DNA of 51,882 nt from Nanobdellota archaeon (GTDB taxonomy: Archaea > Nanobdellota > Nanobdellia > SCGC-AAA011-G17 > UBA489): contig JAUYMN010000017.1 of NCBI GenBank assembly GCA_030699455.1, positions 1-51,882 of the forward strand, read 5' to 3'. This document shows, piece after piece, positions 40,066 to 47,920 of this stretch. The notes beneath the pieces are model-generated. The model was not told the origin of the DNA, searched no databases, and saw only the letters and a list, made by a program, of their open reading frames with translations. Positions within the stretch are counted from its first letter, which is position 1. Each line of letters starts with the position of its first letter. Both the position numbers and the translations under genes were made by a program.

Positions 40066-42645
40066 CTATTCCAAAACTATTGCAGGCTTTCCAGGGATTG
40101 CATTCTGCGCCTTTTGGTGTTTAGACGTCTCTGATGTCTCTACTGTTATTTTAAGGCCTGTTTCATCTTCTAGGGATTTTTTATTTTTTTTCAAAATATC
40201 TATTTCTTCCTTTTGTGTGAAAGAAATGTTGATGTTAATATTTCTTTTTGTGTAAGAATGTATTATTTTCATTCCTTCCTGCATGTGTGATTTATCTTTA
40301 ATTGCTTTTGTTATTTCTTTTATATCCATTGAATTTGCTTTTTTTATATCTTTAAAGAAATCATATTTCCATTTGTTTGATACAATTAATGCTGCTTTTG
40401 TGGGTTTTATTTTTATTAAATTTTTAATTTCTTCAATATCTGATTTTACTTTGGATATTAAATTGTCTTCTTCTTCAATCTTTATATCAATCTTTGATTT
40501 GTCTAATTTTGGCCAACTTTCTAATGAAATAAAACCTTTATTTCCTGTTTTTTCCCAAAGTTCTTCTGCTAAATGCGGACAGAATGGAGATATTAATTTT
40601 ATTAAGGAGTTTAAATCATCTTTTGAAATATTTTCTTCTAATTCAGAAATAACATTTCTTATTGCTATTGTTGCATGATCATATCTAAATGATTCAATAG
40701 ATTCTGTTATTTTTTGTATTGCAATGTTGATTTTATGCTGTGTTCTCTTTGAGGATTTGCCTATTTTTACTGTGGTTATGCAATCATAAAATTTTCTTAA
40801 GAATTTGTGACTCCCATCTATGCCATTTTTATTCCAGTCTCTGTCTTTATCAGGGGATGCTAGTGACAATAGAAAGAATCTTGCTGAATCAATCCCATAC
40901 TCTTTAGATACTTCTTCAGGGAGAACAACCTTGCCTGTGGATTTGGACATTTTTTCTCCCCCTTCGCCGTGAAGCATTCCATGGTTGAATAGCTTAACTG
41001 CCGGTTCATCAAATTTTAATAATCCAATATCTCTTAGGAATTTAGTGTAAAATCTAAAGTAAATCAGATGCATACATGCGTGTTCTTTTCCACCAATGTA
41101 AACATCTACAGGACACCAATAGTTTGCATTTTCTTTTTTAAAAATATTATTTTTGTTTTTTGGATCAGTATATCTTAAGAAATACCATGATGAATTGACA
41201 AAAGTGTCCATTGTATCTGTTTCTCTTTCTGCTTTGCCTTTGCATTTGGGACATTTTACTTCAAGGAATTTTTTATTGTTTAATAATGGATTTTTTGTTC
41301 CTGTGAATTTAATGTTGTCTGGAAGGATAATTGGGATATCATTATTTGGTACTGGACCGCAATTTTTACAATTGATTATTGGAATTGGTGTGCCCCAAAA
41401 TCTTTGCCTTGAAATTAACCAATCTCTCAATCTGAATGTTATTGTTGACTTTCCAAGCTTCTTAGATTTTAGATAATCTGTTATCTTTTCTTTTGCTTTT
41501 GCTGAGTTTAAACCATTAAATTTATCTGAATTAATTAATATTCCTTCTCCAGTGTATGCTTGGTTTGTTATCTTTTCTTTTGATTGTATTACCTGCTTAA
41601 TTGGAATGTTATACTTTTTTGCAAATTCAAAATCTCTTTGATCATGTGCTGGTACAGCCATAACCATCCCAGAGCCATAATCTGCCAATACAAAGTTTCC
41701 TGCATAAATTGGGATTCTTTCATGTGTTAATGGATGTGTTGCATAACTACCTGTGAAAACACCCTCCTTGGTTAGCATATCTTCCTCGCTTGTAGAATGT
41801 ATGTTTTTAATGAAGCTTTCAACTTTTGATTGTTGTTCTTTTGTTGTTATTTCTTTAAGCCTTGGGTGCTGTGCGGATATCACCAAAAAAGTAACACCAA
41901 ACAATGTGTCTGGTCTTGTTGTGAAAACTTTCCAGTCTTCATTATTTATACTAAAGATTATTTCTGTTCCGTGGCTCTTTCCTATCCAGTTTTTTTGAAG
42001 CTTTTTTATTAATTCCGGCCATTCTTTTAATTTATCTATATTTTCATATAATTCATCTGCATAATTTGTTATTTTTAGAAACCATTGTTCTAAGTTTTTT
42101 ATCTGCACTTCTGTTTCTTCATGTCTCCAACATCTGCCATTATTAACTTGTTCATTAGCTAATACTGTGTCACATTTAGGACACCAATTAACCGGAGATT
42201 TTTTCTTATATGCTAATCCTCTTTTGAACATTTCCAAGAATATCCACTGATCCCACTTGTAATATTCTGGTTTGTGAACTTGTATCATTCTTGACCAGTC
42301 ATAGCTTAAACCAATCGCCTTCTGTTGTTTTATGTAATTCTTTATTGCATCATCTGTAAACTTTTTTGGATGTGATTTTGCTTTTATTGCTGCATTTTCT
42401 GCCGGCAATCCAAATGAATCATACCCCATTGGGTACAAGACATTAAATCCCGACATTCGCTTGAATCTTGCATATATGTCCCCTACCGTGTAGTTGAATG
42501 CATGACCCATATGCAGTCCTAATCCTGAAGGGTATGGGAACATCTCCAGAACATAGAATTTTTTCCTTGAGTTTTTTTTTATGTTAAAAATTTTCTTTTC
42601 TTCCCATCTTTTCTGCCATTTTTTTGCTATTTTATTAAGATCCAT
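40066..42645 (-). CDS. leuS: leucine--tRNA ligase, bacterial-type core with archaeal-type C-terminal domain
   Basis: LEMFPYPSG.GLHMGH, DSFGLPAENAAI, VFTTRPDTLFG, RDWLISRQRFWGTPIP, GGKEHACMHL, KMSKS; ends KAQNAIPGKPAIVLE. Confidence 0.96.
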   Translation of the reverse strand: MDLNKIAKKWQKRWEEKKIFNIKKNSRKKFYVLEMFPYPSGLGLHMGHAFNYTVGDIYARFKRMSGFNVLYPMGYDSFGLPAENAAIKAKSHPKKFTDDAIKNYIKQQKAIGLSYDWSRMIQVHKPEYYKWDQWIFLEMFKRGLAYKKKSPVNWCPKCDTVLANEQVNNGRCWRHEETEVQIKNLEQWFLKITNYADELYENIDKLKEWPELIKKLQKNWIGKSHGTEIIFSINNEDWKVFTTRPDTLFGVTFLVISAQHPRLKEITTKEQQSKVESFIKNIHSTSEEDMLTKEGVFTGSYATHPLTHERIPIYAGNFVLADYGSGMVMAVPAHDQRDFEFAKKYNIPIKQVIQSKEKITNQAYTGEGILINSDKFNGLNSAKAKEKITDYLKSKKLGKSTITFRLRDWLISRQRFWGTPIPIINCKNCGPVPNNDIPIILPDNIKFTGTKNPLLNNKKFLEVKCPKCKGKAERETDTMDTFVNSSWYFLRYTDPKNKNNIFKKENANYWCPVDVYIGGKEHACMHLIYFRFYTKFLRDIGLLKFDEPAVKLFNHGMLHGEGGEKMSKSTGKVVLPEEVSKEYGIDSARFFLLSLASPDKDRDWNKNGIDGSHKFLRKFYDCITTVKIGKSSKRTQHKINIAIQKITESIESFRYDHATIAIRNVISELEENISKDDLNSLIKLISPFCPHLAEELWEKTGNKGFISLESWPKLDKSKIDIKIEEEDNLISKVKSDIEEIKNLIKIKPTKAALIVSNKWKYDFFKDIKKANSMDIKEITKAIKDKSHMQEGMKIIHSYTKRNININISFTQKEEIDILKKNKKSLEDETGLKITVETSETSKHQKAQNAIPGKPAIVLE

Positions 42646-42668
42646 GGTGTTTTTTATAGCAACCGTAT

Positions 42669-43745
42669 TTAAAAACTTTTAGAGAAGTGCATTGCTGCAT
42701 TAGCGGGTACTAAGAGAGTTATTTTCTTAACAACCTCTTTTCTGAGCTTAAAACTATCTGCCCATTTGGCATAAGCATTCCAGCCATAAAAACTTTCAAG
42801 TATCTTATCTTTGTTTATTTCTTTATTCTTATATTCCTTAACTTTATTTAGTATGCTTCTAATATTTCTTTTTCTTAAAAGCTTATGATAATAAAAAGTT
42901 CTGAATCCAACAAAATCAATCCCTCTTGAAAGGGAAATTATTCTTGATTTATCTGGGTGTAATTCAATCATTAATTTATCAATTAGAAACTCTTTTATTT
43001 TAGACTCCAAAATTTTTAGCTGTTGTCTTGATTTGTGCAAGATAACAAAATCGTCAACATATCTGATATAATGTTTTACCTTTAATCTATGTTTTACAAA
43101 ATAATCCAGCTCGTTAAGATAGACATTAGCAAAGAATTGTGATGTTAGATTTCCAAGAGGCATTCCTTTTTCAGAAAAACTCTTTTGCTGGATTTTATTT
43201 GAGCCATTCTTCAAAATTTTTTTAATGAGCCAATTGGCATTTTCATCTTTAATCTTTCTTTGGATTATTTTAATTAAAACTTTGTGATTAACTTCTTGAA
43301 AATAATGTTTTATATCTGCTTTGAAACAAAATGCCTCTTTTCTTAGATTGCAGGTCACCTTTCTCTTGAATAAATTAAACCTTTTTAATGCAAATAAATT
43401 TCCTTTTCCTATTCGGTTTGCACAAGAATCGTAAATAAAACTTTTATCAAAAATTGGTTCAATTACTTTAATTAATGCGTGATGCACTACTCTATCTCTG
43501 AATGCAGACTTGCTTATCTTTCTAGTTTTGGGGTCTCTTAGAATAAATATCTTCAATGGCTCTGGATTGTAAGTCTTAGCTTCAAGTTCTTCATGCAACT
43601 TAATCAGATTTTCTTGTAAATTTTCTTCAAATTCAATAACATATTCTTTTTTTGTCTTATGCTTTCTTGCTTTTTTATATGCAAAATAAAGATTTTCCAA
43701 TGAAATAATTTTTAAGTAAATCTCATTACAATCATTTTCATCCAT
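42669..43745 (-). CDS. DGR reverse transcriptase
   Basis: FRDRVVHHAL, SCANRIGKG, KADIKHYF, GMPLGNLTSQFFANVYL (DGR-type SQ motif), YIRYVDDF, IDFVGF; 358 aa with no endonuclease domain. Confidence 0.95.
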   Translation of the reverse strand: MDENDCNEIYLKIISLENLYFAYKKARKHKTKKEYVIEFEENLQENLIKLHEELEAKTYNPEPLKIFILRDPKTRKISKSAFRDRVVHHALIKVIEPIFDKSFIYDSCANRIGKGNLFALKRFNLFKRKVTCNLRKEAFCFKADIKHYFQEVNHKVLIKIIQRKIKDENANWLIKKILKNGSNKIQQKSFSEKGMPLGNLTSQFFANVYLNELDYFVKHRLKVKHYIRYVDDFVILHKSRQQLKILESKIKEFLIDKLMIELHPDKSRIISLSRGIDFVGFRTFYYHKLLRKRNIRSILNKVKEYKNKEINKDKILESFYGWNAYAKWADSFKLRKEVVKKITLLVPANAAMHFSKSF

Positions 43746-43778
43746 TTTATTATTAATCTTAAACCCGGGAAAGCCATT

Positions 43779-43865
43779 CCGCGCACAGCGTTGCCGTAGT
43801 TCAGGTACCTGTTGTTGCCATTAAGCCCAGACCTGTTGTCATCATCAATCCTATGAAGCCACGCC
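43779..43865 (-). repeat. DGR template repeat (TR)
   Basis: 87 nt, 78/87 identical to 44213-44299; conceptual translation AWLHRIDDDNRSGLNGNNRYLNYGNAVR, AAC-rich. Confidence 0.95.
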
Positions 43866-44030
43866 ATGCTATAGCCCTCGTTATCATGTATTCACCAAAG
43901 CTTCTCGCGAGTCGCTTTTGTATTTTATGACTTAAAATAAACAATAATGCCTTGATAAAAGGGCGTGTGACCTTTCCTGCTATTCTCCTTAAATAGCATA
44001 CTGCTAAATTCAAATAGCAATAGGGGTAAT
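43866..44030 (-). ncRNA. putative structured 5' region of the DGR template RNA
   Basis: Consecutive hairpins at 44002-44019, 43978-43998, 43921-43939 and 43897-43918; TTTAAA TATA-like box near 44049-44056. Confidence 0.55.
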
Positions 44031-44061
44031 GTTAGGTGGAAGAATATCTTTAAAAAAATTA

Positions 44062-44808
44062 TTATTTTCTGAAAAAAGTTTCCAAGCCTTTTTCGAAATC
44101 TTTTCTTGCTAATTTCGGAACAAATTGTCTGCTATAATTAGCAATGTCTGTAAGGTTAGGTGTGGAAATTATTGAAACAGTCTCGCCACTTCGTGGCTCG
44201 ACACGACGCACCCCGCGCACAGCGATGCCGTAGTCCAGGCACCCGAGGTTGCCATTAAGCCCAGACCTGTTGCCAACATCAAACCTATGAAGCCACGCCT
44301 GTCTTGCAAAAGGTCTCTTCTCTGGATTAGCTAAATAGACAGGCATTTCTTTTACTCCTGTTTCTTTTAAAAATTCTCCATATTCACCTGCTGACCTTCC
44401 AAAAGCAAAGGCTGTTATTTCATCTTCCTCAAATCTATTTGTAGGTATTGAGCTTGCATCTTTAAATTGAACAGAATTAACCAATGATTCTTCTACCTGT
44501 TCTTGAGTTAAATAAAATTCTTCTCCGTTTCTATTACAATTTGCTGCTTCTTCAGCATTAGCCAGTATTGGGGAGTCTCCTACTAAAAATATTCCTTTTT
44601 TAGAAACATACAAAAATCCTTCTTTTGTACGACTCCCATAATTAGCCACACGAGAACCCTCTCCTTGAGCAATCCTTAGTTCCGCAAATTGCTCTAAAGA
44701 AATAATATTATAACCATTAGCCTCAAGCTCTGCTTTTGCTTCATCGAATGGTTTTTCTACATAAGCTGATTCTATTTCTGTTGGCCTTACATCCCGAATT
44801 ATTGTCAT
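44062..44808 (-). CDS. DGR target (variable) protein, probably CLec-like fold, no signal peptide
   Basis: Contains VR encoding AWLHRFDVGNRSGLNGNLGCLDYGIAVRG, followed by ~50 more residues. Confidence 0.9.
   Translation of the reverse strand: MTIIRDVRPTEIESAYVEKPFDEAKAELEANGYNIISLEQFAELRIAQGEGSRVANYGSRTKEGFLYVSKKGIFLVGDSPILANAEEAANCNRNGEEFYLTQEQVEESLVNSVQFKDASSIPTNRFEEDEITAFAFGRSAGEYGEFLKETGVKEMPVYLANPEKRPFARQAWLHRFDVGNRSGLNGNLGCLDYGIAVRGVRRVEPRSGETVSIISTPNLTDIANYSRQFVPKLARKDFEKGLETFFRK
44180..44202 (-). promoter_or_regulatory. DGR homing hairpin downstream of VR/IMH
   Basis: Minus strand GTC-GA-GCCAC-GAA-GTGGC-GA-GAC, 10 nt after the VR end. Confidence 0.75.
44213..44299 (-). repeat. DGR variable repeat (VR)
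   Basis: 9 substitutions versus TR, all at TR A positions (minus strand), changing 8 codons. Confidence 0.95.
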
Positions 44809-45073
44809 ACTCTTATTTTAAAATTTGAAGTTTATAAATGTTTCTATTATGTTCTTATTTAATAGTGGTAATAAAATAAGGATAAATAACATACCATATT
44901 ATGGGCGACTGCTTCTAACAAGTTTTATTTAGAAGAGTCTTAGTAAAACTTGACATAACAATTAAGGAAACAGCTAATGCAGATAAAATGGAAAAGCTAA
45001 TCTTTGATTCAAATAACCCAATTTAATATTAGAATAGGCTTCAGAAGATAAAGTTAAAAAACACCATTATATT

Positions 45074-45826
45074 GTGATGTCTATGGGGAATAAGAGATTA
45101 CTGATAATTTGTATATTTTTTGTTGTGATATCTTCATCTTTTGTTGTTTCACAAAATAATTCTGGAGGTGGCTCAAGTTCAAATTCCACTTCCTATGCTG
45201 GTGGCGGATCTTTGCCCGTGATTGCCGATAATAAACATCTCAAAAACCTCTATTTTTCTGAACCTGTAAAATCCATAGATTTCCTGGTAAATAAAACTGT
45301 TTTTGCTGGAAAACCATTCCCCAAAAAAATTGAAAAACTACCTGACAAAATAAATGAAATTAAATCAAAAAATGTTTATTCCTACTTTAATATTGAATCT
45401 GACAAAAAGATAAATGATAATCTAGTATCTGCTGAAATAAAATTTAATGTTAAACGTTTTTGGATAGAAGAAAAAAATGTTGATTTTGAAGATATAACTT
45501 TGTTGATTTATGACAAAAATGGCTGGAGTGATTATGGAATCGATGTTGAATACTTTGGGGAAAACTCTGAAGATTATTTTTATTTAGCGCAGATTCCATA
45601 CTTTTCTTATTTTGCAATCATTGCAGAAAAAATGGCGGTCATTGAAGGGGATGCTTCTGAAAAGAGTTCTGTTGAAGAAATCAGGAATATTACTGAAGAA
45701 AAAATGCCTGAGGATGTTCCCAAGAAAAAATCTTCTGTTTCTTTAGTTATCTTTGGTGTTCTTTTTTTTGTTGTTTTGTATTTGACATATGAATGGTTAA
45801 TGAAGAAAAAAATTCGAAAGGTTTAA
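45074..45826 (+). CDS. PGF-pre-PGF domain surface protein
   Basis: Signal peptide, GGGSS linker, VYSYFNI..AEIKFNVKRFWI..IPYFSYFAI, C-terminal TM and basic tail. Confidence 0.85.
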   Translation: MMSMGNKRLLIICIFFVVISSSFVVSQNNSGGGSSSNSTSYAGGGSLPVIADNKHLKNLYFSEPVKSIDFLVNKTVFAGKPFPKKIEKLPDKINEIKSKNVYSYFNIESDKKINDNLVSAEIKFNVKRFWIEEKNVDFEDITLLIYDKNGWSDYGIDVEYFGENSEDYFYLAQIPYFSYFAIIAEKMAVIEGDASEKSSVEEIRNITEEKMPEDVPKKKSSVSLVIFGVLFFVVLYLTYEWLMKKKIRKV

Positions 45827-46009: not shown

Positions 46010-47920
46010 ATGAAGAAGCTAGTTATTATTATCGCATTTTTATTGATTTTGTCTATTTTGCCTGCTTTTGGCAGACTTCAGGCTCCCAAACAACTGCCCA
46101 GCAATATGGCATTTAATTCTGTCGATATGTGCTCTGATACTGATGGAGGGATTAATCCTTATGTTTATGGAGAATGCACAAAAGATGGCTCGAAATTAGT
46201 TGACAGTTGTGTTACTCCCTCAAGTGGCGCGGTTGATTCATATATAGTTAATGAGCAATACTGCGGGATTACCTGCAAGACGACTGCCATGGTTTGTGAT
46301 TCTGGTTATTGGTGTGAAAATGGAGCGTGCAAGACAGTTTATGATGTTCCAACATTACATGGTATAACTTCTCCTCTTGGAGAAAATCCTGTTTTACATG
46401 TTGGGGATATGCTTCCATTATTTTTCAATTGGTCTGATCCATCTGGAGGACATATGCCTGCCTTTAGTGAGGGGTGCAAGAGTGATGATCCTGGCGGGAT
46501 GGGAAATATTTGCAATGATCCTAATCAGCTAGACCTTGGAGAAAATACATGGTGCAATAGTGGTGTTCTTGCATATCCTAATGAGCCGTCCATCTGTTAT
46601 TTCCGTGTTGGATTTGAAGATATTGGGGAGCATACATTATATGGTTATACTTGCAATACTTACGGTTGTAGCGAGAATTTTGTAGATTTTAACTTTACTG
46701 TAGAGGGTAAGGAGATCATATACATAAGCTATTATGACAAGACAAAAGAAAATCTTAAGATGGCCAAAATTAACAATGTAGATTCTGTCAGCATTGAAAC
46801 TATTGATTCTAATTTTGGTGTTGGTGCATTTAATTCTATTATTCTGGACAGCAATGGAAACCCACATGTTTCATATTTTGATTCTGGAAAAACAGTAAAG
46901 TATGCCAAATATGTAAGAACTGGCGGAAATTGTGACACTGATGGCGAATGGGACTGCGAGACAATAGATGGAAGCATTGGCCCATATGCAAATACTCAAT
47001 TTGATGTGGGAGAATATACTACAATACTTTTGGATGGCAATGAACTGCCACAAATAATAGTCAATAATGATAAGCAGGATGGGCCATTTTTGGAGTATTG
47101 GAAACGGTTAGGGGCTGTAGGATATAGTTGTGATGAGTGGAGCTGTGAATGGATTACACAGTTTATTACTGCAGATAATTCTGCCGGAAGCATGATTAAT
47201 TCTTTAAGTGATGAATTTCCGATGGTTGTTTATATTAGTGACAATCCTGATAAGAATCGAATTGGACTTGCCCAACGGTGGCCTGGTTCTCCAAGTACAA
47301 CCTGCAATAATAGCCCGTCTTGGGATTGTTTAAGCATAATAAAACTAAATAATGGTGGCGGTTTTGGAGGAATCAATATGATTAAAGATAGTCTTAAAGT
47401 TGCTGTTTTTGAACAAGACAGAAAAAATATATGGTATATGGAAGAGGTTGGATATGGTGGAAAATGCGGTCCAACTAATGTTGATTGGAACTGTGATGTA
47501 ATTGATACAGGTATTGATAATAGTTACGATGGGAATGCAGAAATCTTCAGAATAGGCATTGCCCATTCTGCTGGAAGAACCTACCTAACATATTATGATG
47601 GAACTACAGGTCATTTGAAAGTTGCGTATAATAGCGGACTTGGAAATTGCGGACCAGATAATAGCTGGCAGTGTGATAAACTAGATTATGTTGGGGATGT
47701 TAACAGCCTACATGCTGATGATTTTGGTTCTTCAATTGCATATTCTGAAATTTCAGACAGATTTTATGTTGCATACAAAGATGCTGTTAAGGGCAATTTA
47801 AAATTAGCTTATAATGTAAGAGATGGAGGAAATTGCGGTCAGGGAAAATGGGAATGCATGACAATAGATAACGACGGTGATGTTGGTGGGTATCCTGATA
47901 TTGTTACATGGAATAATTAA
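46010..47920 (+). CDS. secreted Cys-rich repeat protein, probable beta-propeller
   Basis: Signal peptide; CSDTDGG module; repeated (Y/H)xxY(Y/F/K)D..(L/V)KxA and GxC..WxC..(I/L)D units. Confidence 0.82.
   Translation: MKKLVIIIAFLLILSILPAFGRLQAPKQLPSNMAFNSVDMCSDTDGGINPYVYGECTKDGSKLVDSCVTPSSGAVDSYIVNEQYCGITCKTTAMVCDSGYWCENGACKTVYDVPTLHGITSPLGENPVLHVGDMLPLFFNWSDPSGGHMPAFSEGCKSDDPGGMGNICNDPNQLDLGENTWCNSGVLAYPNEPSICYFRVGFEDIGEHTLYGYTCNTYGCSENFVDFNFTVEGKEIIYISYYDKTKENLKMAKINNVDSVSIETIDSNFGVGAFNSIILDSNGNPHVSYFDSGKTVKYAKYVRTGGNCDTDGEWDCETIDGSIGPYANTQFDVGEYTTILLDGNELPQIIVNNDKQDGPFLEYWKRLGAVGYSCDEWSCEWITQFITADNSAGSMINSLSDEFPMVVYISDNPDKNRIGLAQRWPGSPSTTCNNSPSWDCLSIIKLNNGGGFGGINMIKDSLKVAVFEQDRKNIWYMEEVGYGGKCGPTNVDWNCDVIDTGIDNSYDGNAEIFRIGIAHSAGRTYLTYYDGTTGHLKVAYNSGLGNCGPDNSWQCDKLDYVGDVNSLHADDFGSSIAYSEISDRFYVAYKDAVKGNLKLAYNVRDGGNCGQGKWECMTIDNDGDVGGYPDIVTWNN

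What the first reader, a model, noticed from the sequence alone, without database searches (positions are those of the whole stretch)
42669..44808. Intact diversity-generating retroelement with strictly adenine-specific TR-to-VR divergence
Seen: 43779-43865 and 44213-44299 align without gaps over 87 nt with 9 mismatches, every one at an A of the minus-strand TR (9 of 22 adenines). They change 8 codons: I>F, D>V, D>G, N>L, R>G, Y>C, N>D, N>I. The 22 adenines lie in 16 codons, all at positions 1-2, so A-mutagenesis cannot create a stop; nominal space is 4^22 sequences. The adjacent RT is intact with GNLTSQ and YVDD. Known: this is the DGR mutagenic retrohoming signature, and DGRs are enriched in DPANN/CPR. 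Inference: no non-A drift suggests recent or ongoing activity on a cytoplasmic protein of unknown ligand.
Basis: partly seen in the sequence, partly recalled or inferred. Interest (0 to 1): 0.88.

Follow-up and report, generated by a model that had tools for sequence, protein, structure and literature searches.

The report
AvpA-type archaeal DGR with RT-16 RNA
This is a genuine, complete diversity-generating retroelement of a type already described in tiny groundwater archaea, and it shows that an orphan structured RNA called RT-16 sits directly in front of the template repeat in this whole class of elements.

Summary
43779-43865 (TR) and 44213-44299 (VR) align ungapped over 87 nt. All 9 mismatches fall at minus-strand TR adenines (P about 1e-6). 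There are 22 adenines in 16 codons, and none can mutate to a stop.

The 358-aa RT is intact. Its best solved relative is the Bordetella phage DGR RT, and in a tree it groups with DGR RTs against group II intron RTs at 100/100 support.

The 248-aa target resembles AvpA (PDB 5ioo). Like AvpA it has an internal VR, a C-terminal tail of about 49 aa, a GGGGT/GGAAT difference at the repeat ends, and a GAA-loop hairpin inside the gene. Paul 2015 and Handa 2016 published these features for Nanoarchaeota DGRs. This is therefore a new member of a known kind.

New here: the 159 nt between the target stop and the TR match Rfam RT-16 (74 bits, cut-off 50). In 27 of 30 other RT-16 loci a TR follows directly, and 310 of 330 substitutions are at adenines. 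No Avd homologue was found in this genome.

Current activity could not be tested, because only contigs were available. The cassette is missing from all 8 same-genus genomes searched.

The parts
42669..43745 (-). DGR reverse transcriptase, 358 aa, intact (GNLTSQ at 198, YVDD at 229)
   Evidence: Pfam RVT_1 at 7.8e-22. Best PDB hit is 8ub7_A at 1.9e-42, and its aligned residues match the 328-aa Bordetella phage BMP-1 RT ORF. Best phage hit is the ANMV-1 virus DGR RT at 41% identity, 6e-69. The tree splits DGR RTs from group II RTs at 100/100.
43746..43778 (-). 33-nt TR-to-RT spacer. It begins with AATG, which completes the IMH*-like GGAATG.
   Evidence: GGAAT is invariant in the 5-locus alignment A3. 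Most RT-16 loci have [GC]GAAT at the TR end.
43779..43865 (-). Template repeat (TR), 87 nt, non-coding, 22 adenines
43866..44024 (-). RT-16 RNA (Rfam RF03019). Its 3' end abuts the first base of TR.
   Evidence: cmscan gives 74.2 bits against a gathering score of 50, E 6.5e-11, matching model positions 1-158 of 158. It is in the same place in L006, L010, L011 and L032. No ORF is conserved across it.
44025..44061 (-). AT-rich leader between the target stop and RT-16. It holds a TTTTAAA-like block conserved in 4 of 5 aligned loci. Possible archaeal TATA box (inference).
   Evidence: Alignment A3, columns 1-16. No promoter test was run.
44062..44808 (-). Target (variable protein) gene, 248 aa, AvpA-like, with no signal or transmembrane segment
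   Evidence: No Pfam hit. PDB 5ioo_A AvpA at E 3.1e-4 over residues 121-246. 121 homologues were found, and the named ones come from Pacearchaeota/Nanoarchaeia MAGs. Hydropathy.
44213..44299 (-). Variable repeat (VR), codons 171-199 of the target
   Evidence: Across 76 family members the A-codon positions are the hypervariable ones: mean entropy 2.43 bits against 1.07 for the other VR codons.
44209..44223 (-). G+C-rich 3' end of VR ending in GGGGTG (IMH-like). TR has GGAATG at the same place.
   Evidence: The motif pair TGGGGT/TGGAAT is described for DUSEL4 Nanoarchaeota DGRs in Paul 2015 (passages read).
44180..44202 (-). Hairpin inside the target gene, 10 nt after the repeat: stem GCCAC/GTGGC, GAA loop, plus a 3-bp outer stem. 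It encodes VEPRSGE.
   Evidence: strand folding. This is not significant for a single sequence (z 0.61). Relatives have hairpins at the same place with different stems (GTGCC/GGCAC, GGTGGC/GCCACC, GCGCCG/CGGCGC) and mostly GAA loops.

Best explanation
A complete four-part diversity-generating retroelement lies on the minus strand. It is of the archaeal AvpA/DUSEL4 type, in a 0.77-Mb DPANN (Pacearchaeota-like) genome from groundwater. The order is: target gene (VR, IMH-like GGGGTG, GAA-loop hairpin), RT-16 structured RNA, TR (IMH*-like GGAATG), RT.

Proposed mechanism (inferred from the Bordetella phage paradigm, not shown here): one transcript starting just upstream of RT-16 carries RT-16, TR and the RT mRNA. 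The RT copies TR into cDNA and misincorporates opposite adenines. The cDNA then replaces VR, with its 3' boundary set at the G+C-rich IMH and helped by the hairpin. This rewrites up to 16 codons (about 5e12 peptides) of the ligand-binding face of a presumably C-type-lectin-fold protein, without ever creating a stop.

No Avd gene is present. The RT-to-TR gap is only 33 nt, so there is no room for a Bordetella-like spacer RNA. The conserved RT-16 element 5' of TR is therefore the likely RT-recruiting or priming RNA module of this clade.
For: The TR/VR pair has 9 of 9 mismatches at TR adenines, P 9.7e-7.

The RT's best solved relative is the Bordetella phage DGR RT at 148.8 bits. The best group-II-like chain scores 82.8 bits. 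Its best phage relative is the ANMV-1 DGR RT.

In an IQ-TREE of 18 RTs, one side holds the window RT, 5 same-order RTs, 5 RTs from annotated DGR contexts and FP_Lagaffe. The other side holds 5 ltrA RTs and Javan33. The split has 100/100 support.

The target hits AvpA (5ioo) at E 3.1e-4, and the match includes the post-VR tail. The internal VR, the tail of about 46 aa holding the hairpin, the TGGGGT/TGGAAT pair and the GRA triloops are all described for this DGR type (Handa 2016 Background and Results; Paul 2015 passages).

Four of the fetched relatives of the target gene (L006, L010, L011, L026) carry a TR/VR pair at similar spacing. Their mismatches at TR adenines are 11/11, 10/10, 9/10 and 11/14. 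The RT follows the TR in all four.

Family-wide amino-acid spectra match A-mutagenesis. Examples are D/V/G at GAT codons, R/G/W at AGG, Y/C/F at TAC and H/R/L at CAT.

RT-16 scores 74.2 bits against a cut-off of 50. Of 30 other RT-16 loci in the order, 27 have a repeat of the sequence immediately 3' of RT-16 elsewhere in the locus, and 310 of 330 substitutions are at adenines of the RT-16-adjacent copy. In 23 of the 30, a homologous RT begins 106-148 nt after RT-16.

No PF05635 (Avd family) match was found in this genome. 59 of the 67 RT-16-positive genomes also lack a match over the cut-off.
Against: Activity is not shown. The runs were available only as contigs.

The genome is 82.7% complete, so an Avd gene or a remote target could lie in the missing part.

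The AvpA match is weak: E 3.1e-4 for the single sequence and 0.0086 for the profile. It covers only the C-terminal half. The C-type lectin fold could not be predicted because the tool was off.

The hairpin is not significant by single-sequence folding (z 0.61).

RT-16 was not detected at gathering score in L026 and L037, which do have TR/VR-like pairs.

Three RT-16 loci with 1500 nt of room (L053, L061, L062) have no RT downstream.

I looked for complementarity between the RT-16 3' end and the post-TR segment and found no covariation. The role proposed for RT-16 therefore has no direct support beyond its position.

No retron RT was in the tree.
Confidence: 0.9

Rival explanations
1. The cassette is structurally intact but currently silent, for example because it was recently acquired or lacks a trans factor such as Avd. 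On this reading the 9 differences record past homing events only.
For: No Avd homologue was found in the genome. In the probable source run, the exact VR contig has depth 7.7 against 8.45 for the flanking contig, so the reference VR dominates its lineage. The cassette is a lineage-specific insertion absent from the 8 same-genus genomes searched.
Against: There are zero non-adenine differences in 65 non-A columns. These include all 29 third codon positions, although the TR is non-coding. That argues for recent copying. All cis elements and the RT are intact. Most RT-16 DGR genomes also lack Avd, yet their TR/VR pairs are clean: 310 of 330 substitutions at A.
Confidence: 0.3
2. The 43866-44024 stretch encodes a small basic Avd-like protein (the 70-aa ORF 43801-44013, pI 11.6, 7.9 kDa) rather than a functional RNA. 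This follows Paul 2015, which marked ORFs between target and RT by pI and mass.
For: The ORF exists in this window, and its pI and mass fit the Paul 2015 criterion of pI 9±1 and 10±5 kDa loosely.
Against: The ORF starts at TTG, overlaps the TR and is not conserved. In L006 the same frame stops after about 44 codons. In L010 and L011 all frames carry stops. Indels in the 5-locus alignment are not multiples of three. It has no Pfam or NCBIfam hit. The stretch matches a curated covariance model end to end.
Confidence: 0.05
3. The RT belongs to a group II intron, retron or defence RT, and the 87-nt repeat is an unrelated partial gene duplication.
For: NCBIfam's best model is group_II_RT_mat at 156 bits. 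PADLOC lists many UG/DRT models with E down to 4e-34.
Against: The 156 bits fall well under the 300-bit cut-off, and the retron model scores 48 against 235. The tree split is 100/100. No group II intron RNA domain or retron msr appeared in the Rfam scan of 42000-45500 at E up to 1. The adenine-only mismatches have P 9.7e-7.
Confidence: 0.01

Closest known systems
DUSEL4 Nanoarchaeota DGRs and their variable protein AvpA (Paul et al. 2015, PMC4372165; Handa et al. 2016, PMC5006420; PDB 5ioo)
   Same: Target about 250 aa with no signal sequence. VR internal (AvpA 181-203, here 171-199). C-terminal tail of 46-49 aa that holds the hairpin. GRA trinucleotide loop (GAA here). IMH GGGGT against IMH* GGAAT. 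Variant space of 1e12-1e13 with no stop possible. Groundwater DPANN host. TR directly upstream of the RT.
   Different: Only weak sequence similarity to AvpA itself (E 3.1e-4, C-terminal half only). There is one cassette per genome here, against four or more in DUSEL4. The space between target and TR is shown here to be RT-16 RNA, whereas Paul 2015 drew Avd-like ORFs there on pI and mass alone.
Bordetella phage BPP-1/BMP-1 DGR (mtd-avd-TR-brt)
   Same: The RT is homologous (31% identity, 4e-41), with the same xGxxxSQ and Y[VM]DD motifs. TR-to-VR differences are at adenines only. There is a G+C-rich IMH and a downstream hairpin.
   Different: No Avd. No 140-nt spacer between TR and RT, since the gap here is 33 nt. 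The conserved structured RNA lies 5' of TR (RT-16), whereas Weinberg 2017 places RT-10 between TR and RT in BPP-1. [quoted passage not shown] The element is in a cellular archaeal genome, not a phage tail fibre.
ANMV-1 archaeal virus DGR (KP703175)
   Same: Closest RT in the phage collection (41% identity, 6e-69). The order is target, short gap, RT.
   Different: The target adtA (446 aa) is Mtd-like, and the element is viral. RT-16 was not detected in its locus L040 at gathering score.
Rfam RF03019 RT-16 RNA (Weinberg et al. 2017, PMC5737381)
   Same: Full-length match above the gathering score, next to an RT gene.
   Different: The main text of the paper assigns no role to RT-16 and links only RT-10 to a DGR. 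Here RT-16 is placed as the immediate 5' neighbour of DGR template repeats. The copy in this window lacks the tip of the third hairpin (about model positions 95-115).

Membership tests
Diversity-generating retroelement (DGR) | Two near-identical repeats whose differences fall at adenines of one copy (TR) | tested here: met
   9 of 9 mismatches at TR adenines over 87 nt, P 9.7e-7.
Diversity-generating retroelement (DGR) | Adjacent reverse transcriptase of the DGR clade | tested here: met
   Tree of 18 RTs with a 100/100 split from group II RTs. Best PDB hit is the Bordetella phage RT. Retron, Abi and UG references were not in the tree.
Diversity-generating retroelement (DGR) | RT motif 4 reads [LIV]GxxxSQ (motif recalled from the DGR literature, not from a call) | tested here: met
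   LGNLTSQ at 197-203 aligns with IGSLTSQ of the Bordetella RT.
Diversity-generating retroelement (DGR) | VR lies in the 3' part of a protein-coding gene, and TR is non-coding and near the RT | tested here: met
   VR covers codons 171-199 of 248. TR lies 33 nt upstream of the RT start.
Diversity-generating retroelement (DGR) | IMH at the VR 3' end differing from IMH* at the TR 3' end | tested here: met
   GCGCGGGGTG against GCGCGGAATG. The same GGGGT/GGAAT pair is present in L010 and L011 and is described by Paul 2015. GGAAT is invariant at the TR end in alignment A3.
Diversity-generating retroelement (DGR) | Hairpin/cruciform downstream of VR | tested here: met
   GCCAC-GAA-GTGGC at 44185-44197. 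Relatives have different stems at the same place. Single-sequence z-score is 0.61, which is not significant.
Diversity-generating retroelement (DGR) | Accessory protein Avd (common but not universal) | tested here: not met
   No PF05635 match in the 82.7%-complete genome. No conserved ORF lies between target and RT.
Diversity-generating retroelement (DGR) | Ongoing mutagenic retrohoming (VR polymorphic, TR invariant within a population) | tested here: inconclusive
   Only contigs were available. A second VR version is present in the source run, and 13 of its 14 listed differences fall at adenine columns. It belongs to a gene copy that also differs elsewhere (29 of 256 nt).
AvpA-like C-type-lectin-fold variable proteins | Sequence homology to AvpA (PDB 5ioo) | tested here: met
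   phmmer E 3.1e-4 over residues 121-246. Profile of 76 homologues gives E 0.0086. The L032 homologue gives 8.5e-6 and is 28% identical to the window protein (2e-17).
AvpA-like C-type-lectin-fold variable proteins | Internal VR followed by a tail of about 46 aa that holds the hairpin | tested here: met
   VR 171-199, tail 200-248, hairpin in codons 203-209. Compared with the Handa 2016 Results.
AvpA-like C-type-lectin-fold variable proteins | C-type lectin fold with the variable residues on one exposed face | not testable with these tools
The ESM Atlas holds no model.
Rfam RF03019 RT-16 RNA | Covariance-model score at or above the curated gathering score, full length | tested here: met
   74.2 bits against 50, model positions 1-158 of 158.
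Group II intron RT/maturase | Score over the TIGR04416 cut-off and flanking intron RNA domains | tested here: not met
   156 bits against a cut-off of 300. No intron RNA family in the Rfam scan at E up to 1. The RT falls on the other side of a 100/100 branch.

The most novel reading that the evidence does not exclude
RT-16 is the dedicated cis-acting RNA module of a large Avd-less clade of DPANN archaeal DGRs. On this reading it sits at the 5' end of the template transcript, abutting TR. It does the work that Avd plus the 3' spacer RNA do in the Bordetella phage: binding the RT and positioning or priming cDNA synthesis. The 'Avd-like ORFs' drawn between target and RT in the first archaeal DGR description would then be this RNA. 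RT-16+TR+VR units without an RT nearby (L053, L061, L062) would be satellite templates served in trans.
Probability: 0.4. Interest if true: 0.65.

Novelty: new member of a known kind. Interest (0 to 1): 0.4.

Why it matters
The DGR itself adds one more clean example to a class known since 2015-2017, so on its own it is ordinary.

The value lies in what surrounds it. RT-16 is an Rfam family with no assigned function. It can now be read as the immediate 5' neighbour of DGR template repeats: in this window, in the 4 related loci that match RT-16, and in 27 of 30 further loci. It occurs in 67 of 151 genomes of the order and in 35 of 151 sampled across the phylum. Most of the genomes carrying it have no recognisable Avd.

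That gives a concrete, testable entry point into how archaeal DGRs prime and target cDNA synthesis without the Bordetella-type accessory parts. It also gives a cheap marker (a covariance model) for finding DGR templates and their boundaries in DPANN genomes.

Tried and rejected
I did not try another folding route. I used sequence and profile searches against PDB and the ESM Atlas, which has no model. Its only family lead, Lcl_C at 0.77, is below the level worth quoting as evidence.

The search for related loci with the 76-row alignment had no conserved stretch. I repeated it with a 15-row alignment, which gave only 3 loci, so I moved to the genome search.

Reads. Laying them cannot show rare variants, depth or RNA, so there is no verdict on activity. 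In run X1 (95% of words, possibly the source), a 3660-nt exact contig ends at 44224, just inside VR. Two versions follow: an exact one at depth 7.7, and one with 19 differences at depth 12.5. Alternative contigs also cover 44365-44481 (6 differences) and 44493-44748 (29 differences). The second version is therefore a diverged gene copy or strain, not a simple VR variant. Parts of X2 to X4 without cover mean nothing.

I looked for base-pairing or covariation between the RT-16 3' end (GGCUA) and the post-TR GGAAURRC segment and found none. The idea was dropped.

Single-sequence folds of the hairpin region and of the whole RT-16-TR region were not better than shuffles (z 0.61 and -0.48).

A remote VR was sought with the TR as DNA and with the protein profile. 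Only the known VR and TR were found in the 82.7%-complete genome.

Paul et al. 2017 (Nat Microbiol) could not be read. It is not held by DOI or PMC id. What I say of it is recalled, or taken from a passage of Dombrowski 2019.

The supplements of Weinberg 2017, where RT-16 is described, are closed. They may already note a DGR link. Full-text searches for 'RT-16' with 'reverse transcriptase' and 'RNA motif' and for 'RT-16 motif', 'RT-16 RNA', 'RT-10 motif' and 'RT-10 RNA' found only Weinberg 2017, a 2026 JAR3D survey and an unrelated paper.

No retron, Abi or UG reference RTs were available as sequences, so the tree tests only DGR against group II.
Full report
OBSERVATION. The repeat finder reports 43779-43865 and 44213-44299 as an 87-nt ungapped direct repeat at 90% identity. 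Read on the minus strand, all 9 mismatches lie at an adenine of the 43865-43779 copy. That copy has 22 adenines in 16 codons, always at codon position 1 or 2. The chance of 9 of 9 mismatches falling on 22 of 87 columns is 9.7e-7. Enumerating all adenine substitutions gives 1.76e13 DNA variants and 5.04e12 peptide variants, and none of the 16 codons can become a stop.

THE REVERSE TRANSCRIPTASE. ORF 42669-43745 (-) is open for 358 aa, with GNLTSQ at residue 198 and YVDD at 229.
- It matches Pfam RVT_1 at 7.8e-22.
- NCBIfam's group II model scores 156 bits, well under its 300-bit cut-off. The retron St85 model scores 48 bits against 235.
- Among solved structures the best hit is 8ub7_A at 1.9e-42 and 148.8 bits. 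The best group-II-like chain scores 82.8 bits. The aligned residues of 8ub7_A are those of the 328-aa RT ORF of Bordetella phage BMP-1 that I read from locus L041, so this chain is the prototype DGR RT.
- tblastn against 50,697 phage records puts the ANMV-1 archaeal virus RT first (41% identity, 6e-69). That record annotates the neighbouring gene as 'DGR target protein adtA'.
- In plasmids, the group II ltrA genes listed below the top hit reach only about 24-28% identity, with E from 1e-22 to 7e-12. The top plasmid hit, on an Alteromonas plasmid, is itself a DGR RT next to an annotated avd gene.

I built a maximum-likelihood tree from 18 RTs:
- the window RT;
- 5 RTs from genomes of the same order;
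- 5 RTs from annotated DGR contexts (ANMV-1, BMP-1, VP58.5, Magia, Alteromonas plasmid);
- 5 annotated ltrA genes;
- 2 unclassified phage RTs (FP_Lagaffe, Javan33).

A branch with 100/100 support separates two groups. The first holds the window RT, the 5 same-order RTs, the 5 DGR references and FP_Lagaffe. The second holds the 5 ltrA genes and Javan33. Retron references were not in the tree.

THE TARGET. ORF 44062-44808 (-) is 248 aa and has no Pfam, NCBIfam or PADLOC family. It has no hydrophobic segment: the highest 19-residue Kyte-Doolittle mean is 1.03, against 2.45 in the neighbouring membrane-anchored protein. Its only meaningful hit among solved structures is AvpA, PDB 5ioo, at E 3.1e-4 over residues 121-246. 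A profile of 76 homologues gives 0.0086. A more distant homologue, L032, gives 8.5e-6 and is itself 28% identical to the window protein.

I read the Background and Results of Handa et al. 2016. AvpA is a 256-aa Nanoarchaeota DGR variable protein with a C-type lectin fold. Its VR is internal (181-203), and a 46-residue disordered tail follows whose DNA holds the hairpin. Nineteen of 22 groundwater homologues sat in DGRs. The window protein has the same layout: VR at 171-199 and a 49-residue tail. The fold itself could not be tested, because structure prediction was off.

The word-index search found 121 homologues. Every named one is a hypothetical protein, nearly all from Pacearchaeota, Nanoarchaeia or unclassified-archaeon MAGs. 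In the alignment of 76 homologues, the 16 adenine-bearing codon positions have a mean entropy of 2.43 bits. The other VR codons average 1.07 bits and the rest of the protein 1.61 bits. The residue sets are those expected from adenine mutagenesis: D/V/G at GAT, R/G/W at AGG, Y/C/F at TAC and H/R/L at CAT.

CIS ELEMENTS. Immediately 3' of the 87-nt repeat, VR reads GGTG where TR reads AATG. The resulting GGGGT in VR against GGAAT in TR is also seen in both relatives whose VR and TR were compared (L010, L011), and GGAAT is invariant at the TR end in the 5-locus alignment A3. G199 and V200, which this stretch encodes, are each conserved in 75 of 76 homologues. These two A/G differences are therefore fixed, not products of mutagenesis. 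Paul et al. [quoted passage not shown] They also report that all hairpins have GRA trinucleotide loops and lie within the target gene.

Ten nucleotides after the repeat, the window has GTCGAGCCAC-GAA-GTGGCGAGAC (44180-44202). Alone it is not significant (z 0.61). Relatives, however, have hairpins at the same place with other stems (GCCAC/GTGGC, GTGCC/GGCAC, GGTGGC/GCCACC, GCGCCG/CGGCGC) and mostly GAA loops. The TR copies lack them.

An Rfam scan of 42000-45500 finds RF03019, RT-16 RNA, at 43866-44024 (-). The score is 74.2 bits against a gathering score of 50, E 6.5e-11, over model positions 1-158 of 158. Its last base abuts the first base of TR, so it fills the space between the target stop codon (44062) and TR.

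The 70-aa ORF that the ORF listing shows there (43801-44013, TTG start, pI 11.6) is not conserved. In L006 the frame stops early. In L010 and L011 every frame has stops. Indels among the five aligned loci are not in threes.

At gathering score, RT-16 is found in the same position in L006, L010, L011 and L032. It is not found in L026, L037 or the ANMV-1 locus (20 loci scanned). Across the order it occurs in:
- 67 of 151 genomes searched;
- 0 of 7 same-genus genomes;
- 0 of 14 control genomes.

In a sample of the phylum it occurs in 35 of 151 genomes, 21 of them outside this order.

For the 30 best RT-16 loci (L052-L081) I took the 140 nt after RT-16 and searched the locus for a second copy. Twenty-seven loci have one. 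The three without are L056, with only 11 nt of sequence after RT-16, and L064 and L081, with 153 and 33 nt before it. In 26 of the 27 the repeat starts within 5 nt of the RT-16 end, and in L078 it starts at nt 33. Summed over the 27, 310 of 330 substitutions are at adenines of the RT-16-adjacent copy, plus 9 gap positions.

A homologue of the window RT begins 106-148 nt after RT-16 in 23 of the 30 loci. L053, L061 and L062 have 1500 nt of room but no RT. L056, L060 and L069 run off the contig. In L066 the only RT match lies upstream.

The main text of Weinberg et al. 2017 (passages read) says that RT-1 to RT-19 lie near RT genes. [quoted passage not shown] Its supplements are closed and may say more. 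The two full-text searches found no paper that assigns RT-16 a role.

NO AVD. The Avd family (PF05635) has no match in this 82.7%-complete genome at E up to 1. In the order, 19 of 240 genomes have a match over the cut-off. Only 8 of the 67 RT-16-positive genomes are among them. No relative has an ORF of Avd size between target and RT. Paul 2015 marked ORFs in that position as Avd-like on isoelectric point and mass only (figure legend). In the loci studied here that position is RT-16.

HOW IT MOST LIKELY WORKS. Shown here: all parts, their order, their integrity and the adenine-only signature, in this locus and in dozens of relatives.

Inferred from the Bordetella phage paradigm: a transcript carrying RT-16, TR and the RT mRNA is reverse-transcribed across TR with misincorporation opposite adenines. 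The cDNA replaces VR up to the G+C-rich IMH. Only 33 nt separate TR from the RT start, so there is no room for the 140-nt spacer RNA that (as I recall from Handa et al. 2018) primes cDNA synthesis in BPP-1. There is also no Avd. The conserved RNA 5' of TR is therefore the obvious candidate for RT binding or priming. I found no covariation between its 3' end and the post-TR segment, so this step is a hypothesis.

A conserved TTTTAAA block about 27 nt upstream of RT-16 may be an archaeal TATA box. This is an inference.

ACTIVITY. The TR and VR show no difference at any of 65 non-adenine columns, including all 29 third codon positions, although the TR is non-coding. That argues for recent copying.

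The runs that hold the stretch are groundwater metagenomes kept as contigs. In X1, which holds 95% of the words and is probably the source, one exact 3660-nt contig covers the RT, TR, RT-16 and the gene's 3' end and stops at 44224, just inside VR. Over VR there are two contigs: an exact one at depth 7.7, and one with 19 differences at depth 12.5. Of its 14 listed differences inside VR, 13 are at adenine columns (P 6e-9). The exception is 44285. Alternative contigs also differ further upstream in the gene (6 of 117 and 29 of 256 nt). This second version is therefore another gene copy or strain with an independently diversified VR, not proof of turnover in this population.

In X2, from a different study, a 350-nt contig over TR and RT-16 has 7 differences, while the contig over VR has 26 in 202 nt. 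All 8 listed VR differences there are at adenine columns. It is not known whether the two contigs are linked.

Contigs cannot show rare variants, so current activity is untested.

CONTEXT. The cassette lies between leucyl-tRNA synthetase (40066-42645, -) and a 250-aa membrane-anchored protein (45074-45826, +). In two same-genus genomes (G221, G222) these two genes are about 100-120 nt apart. In G224 an 830-nt gap holds an unrelated 236-aa membrane protein gene. None of the 8 same-genus genomes has a target homologue, and none of the 7 searched has RT-16. The best target matches are in other families of the order: 355 bits in f28 and f15, against 221 bits in the window's own family. The cassette is thus a lineage-specific gain, probably by transfer within the order.

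The genome has one RT, one RT-16 and no second VR.

VERDICT. This is a real, complete DGR and a new member of the published AvpA/DUSEL4 archaeal type. On its own it is ordinary. The link between RT-16 and the template repeat, together with the general lack of Avd, is the part worth following.

Noticed in passing
L053 (G108:C19), L061 (G163:C112), L062 (G132:C16): These are RT-16 + TR + VR units with clean adenine-only differences (12/12, 13/13, 12/12) but no RT homologue within 1500 nt downstream. G108 and G163 each have a second RT-16 copy elsewhere. They may be satellite templates served by an RT in trans.
   Followed up: partly
window 42646-45073, compared with L089/L093 (G221), L087/L094 (G222) and L083/L092 (G224): The DGR cassette fills a 2.4-kb gap between LeuRS and a 250-aa membrane-anchored protein. 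The gap is only about 100-120 nt in two congeners. In a third congener it holds an unrelated 236-aa membrane protein gene. This spot varies between genomes, and the cassette is a lineage-specific gain.
   Followed up: yes
window 44195-44748, in run X1: The probable source sample holds a second version of the target gene at similar depth. It has 19 differences over VR, 13 of the 14 listed ones at adenine columns, and 6 and 29 differences further upstream. No second version of the TR or RT was seen at 85% likeness. It could be a second target missing from the bin or a co-occurring strain.
   Followed up: partly
genomes G208, G020, G063: Several genomes of about 1 Mb carry 4-5 RT-16 copies. This matches the multiplicity of DGRs that Paul 2015 noted for DUSEL4. 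The window's genome has one.
   Followed up: no
G208:C28:26297-26608 (L097), near L058: A PF05635 (Avd-family) ORF lies about 2 kb beyond the RT of an RT-16 DGR, on the opposite strand. It is one of the 8 RT-16-positive genomes that do have this family. Whether it belongs to the DGR was not checked.
   Followed up: no
window 46010-47920 (+): A 636-aa protein with an N-terminal hydrophobic segment, many Cys and Gly, and repeated units ending in ...LK(V/L/M)A(Y/K). It has no Pfam hit. It looks like a secreted or surface repeat protein next to the DGR.
   Followed up: no
window 43866-44024 compared with the RF03019 model: The window's RT-16 lacks the tip of the third hairpin (about model positions 95-115). 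The four AvpA-linked relatives have equally short sequence at this stretch in alignment A3. This may be a subtype of the motif.
   Followed up: partly
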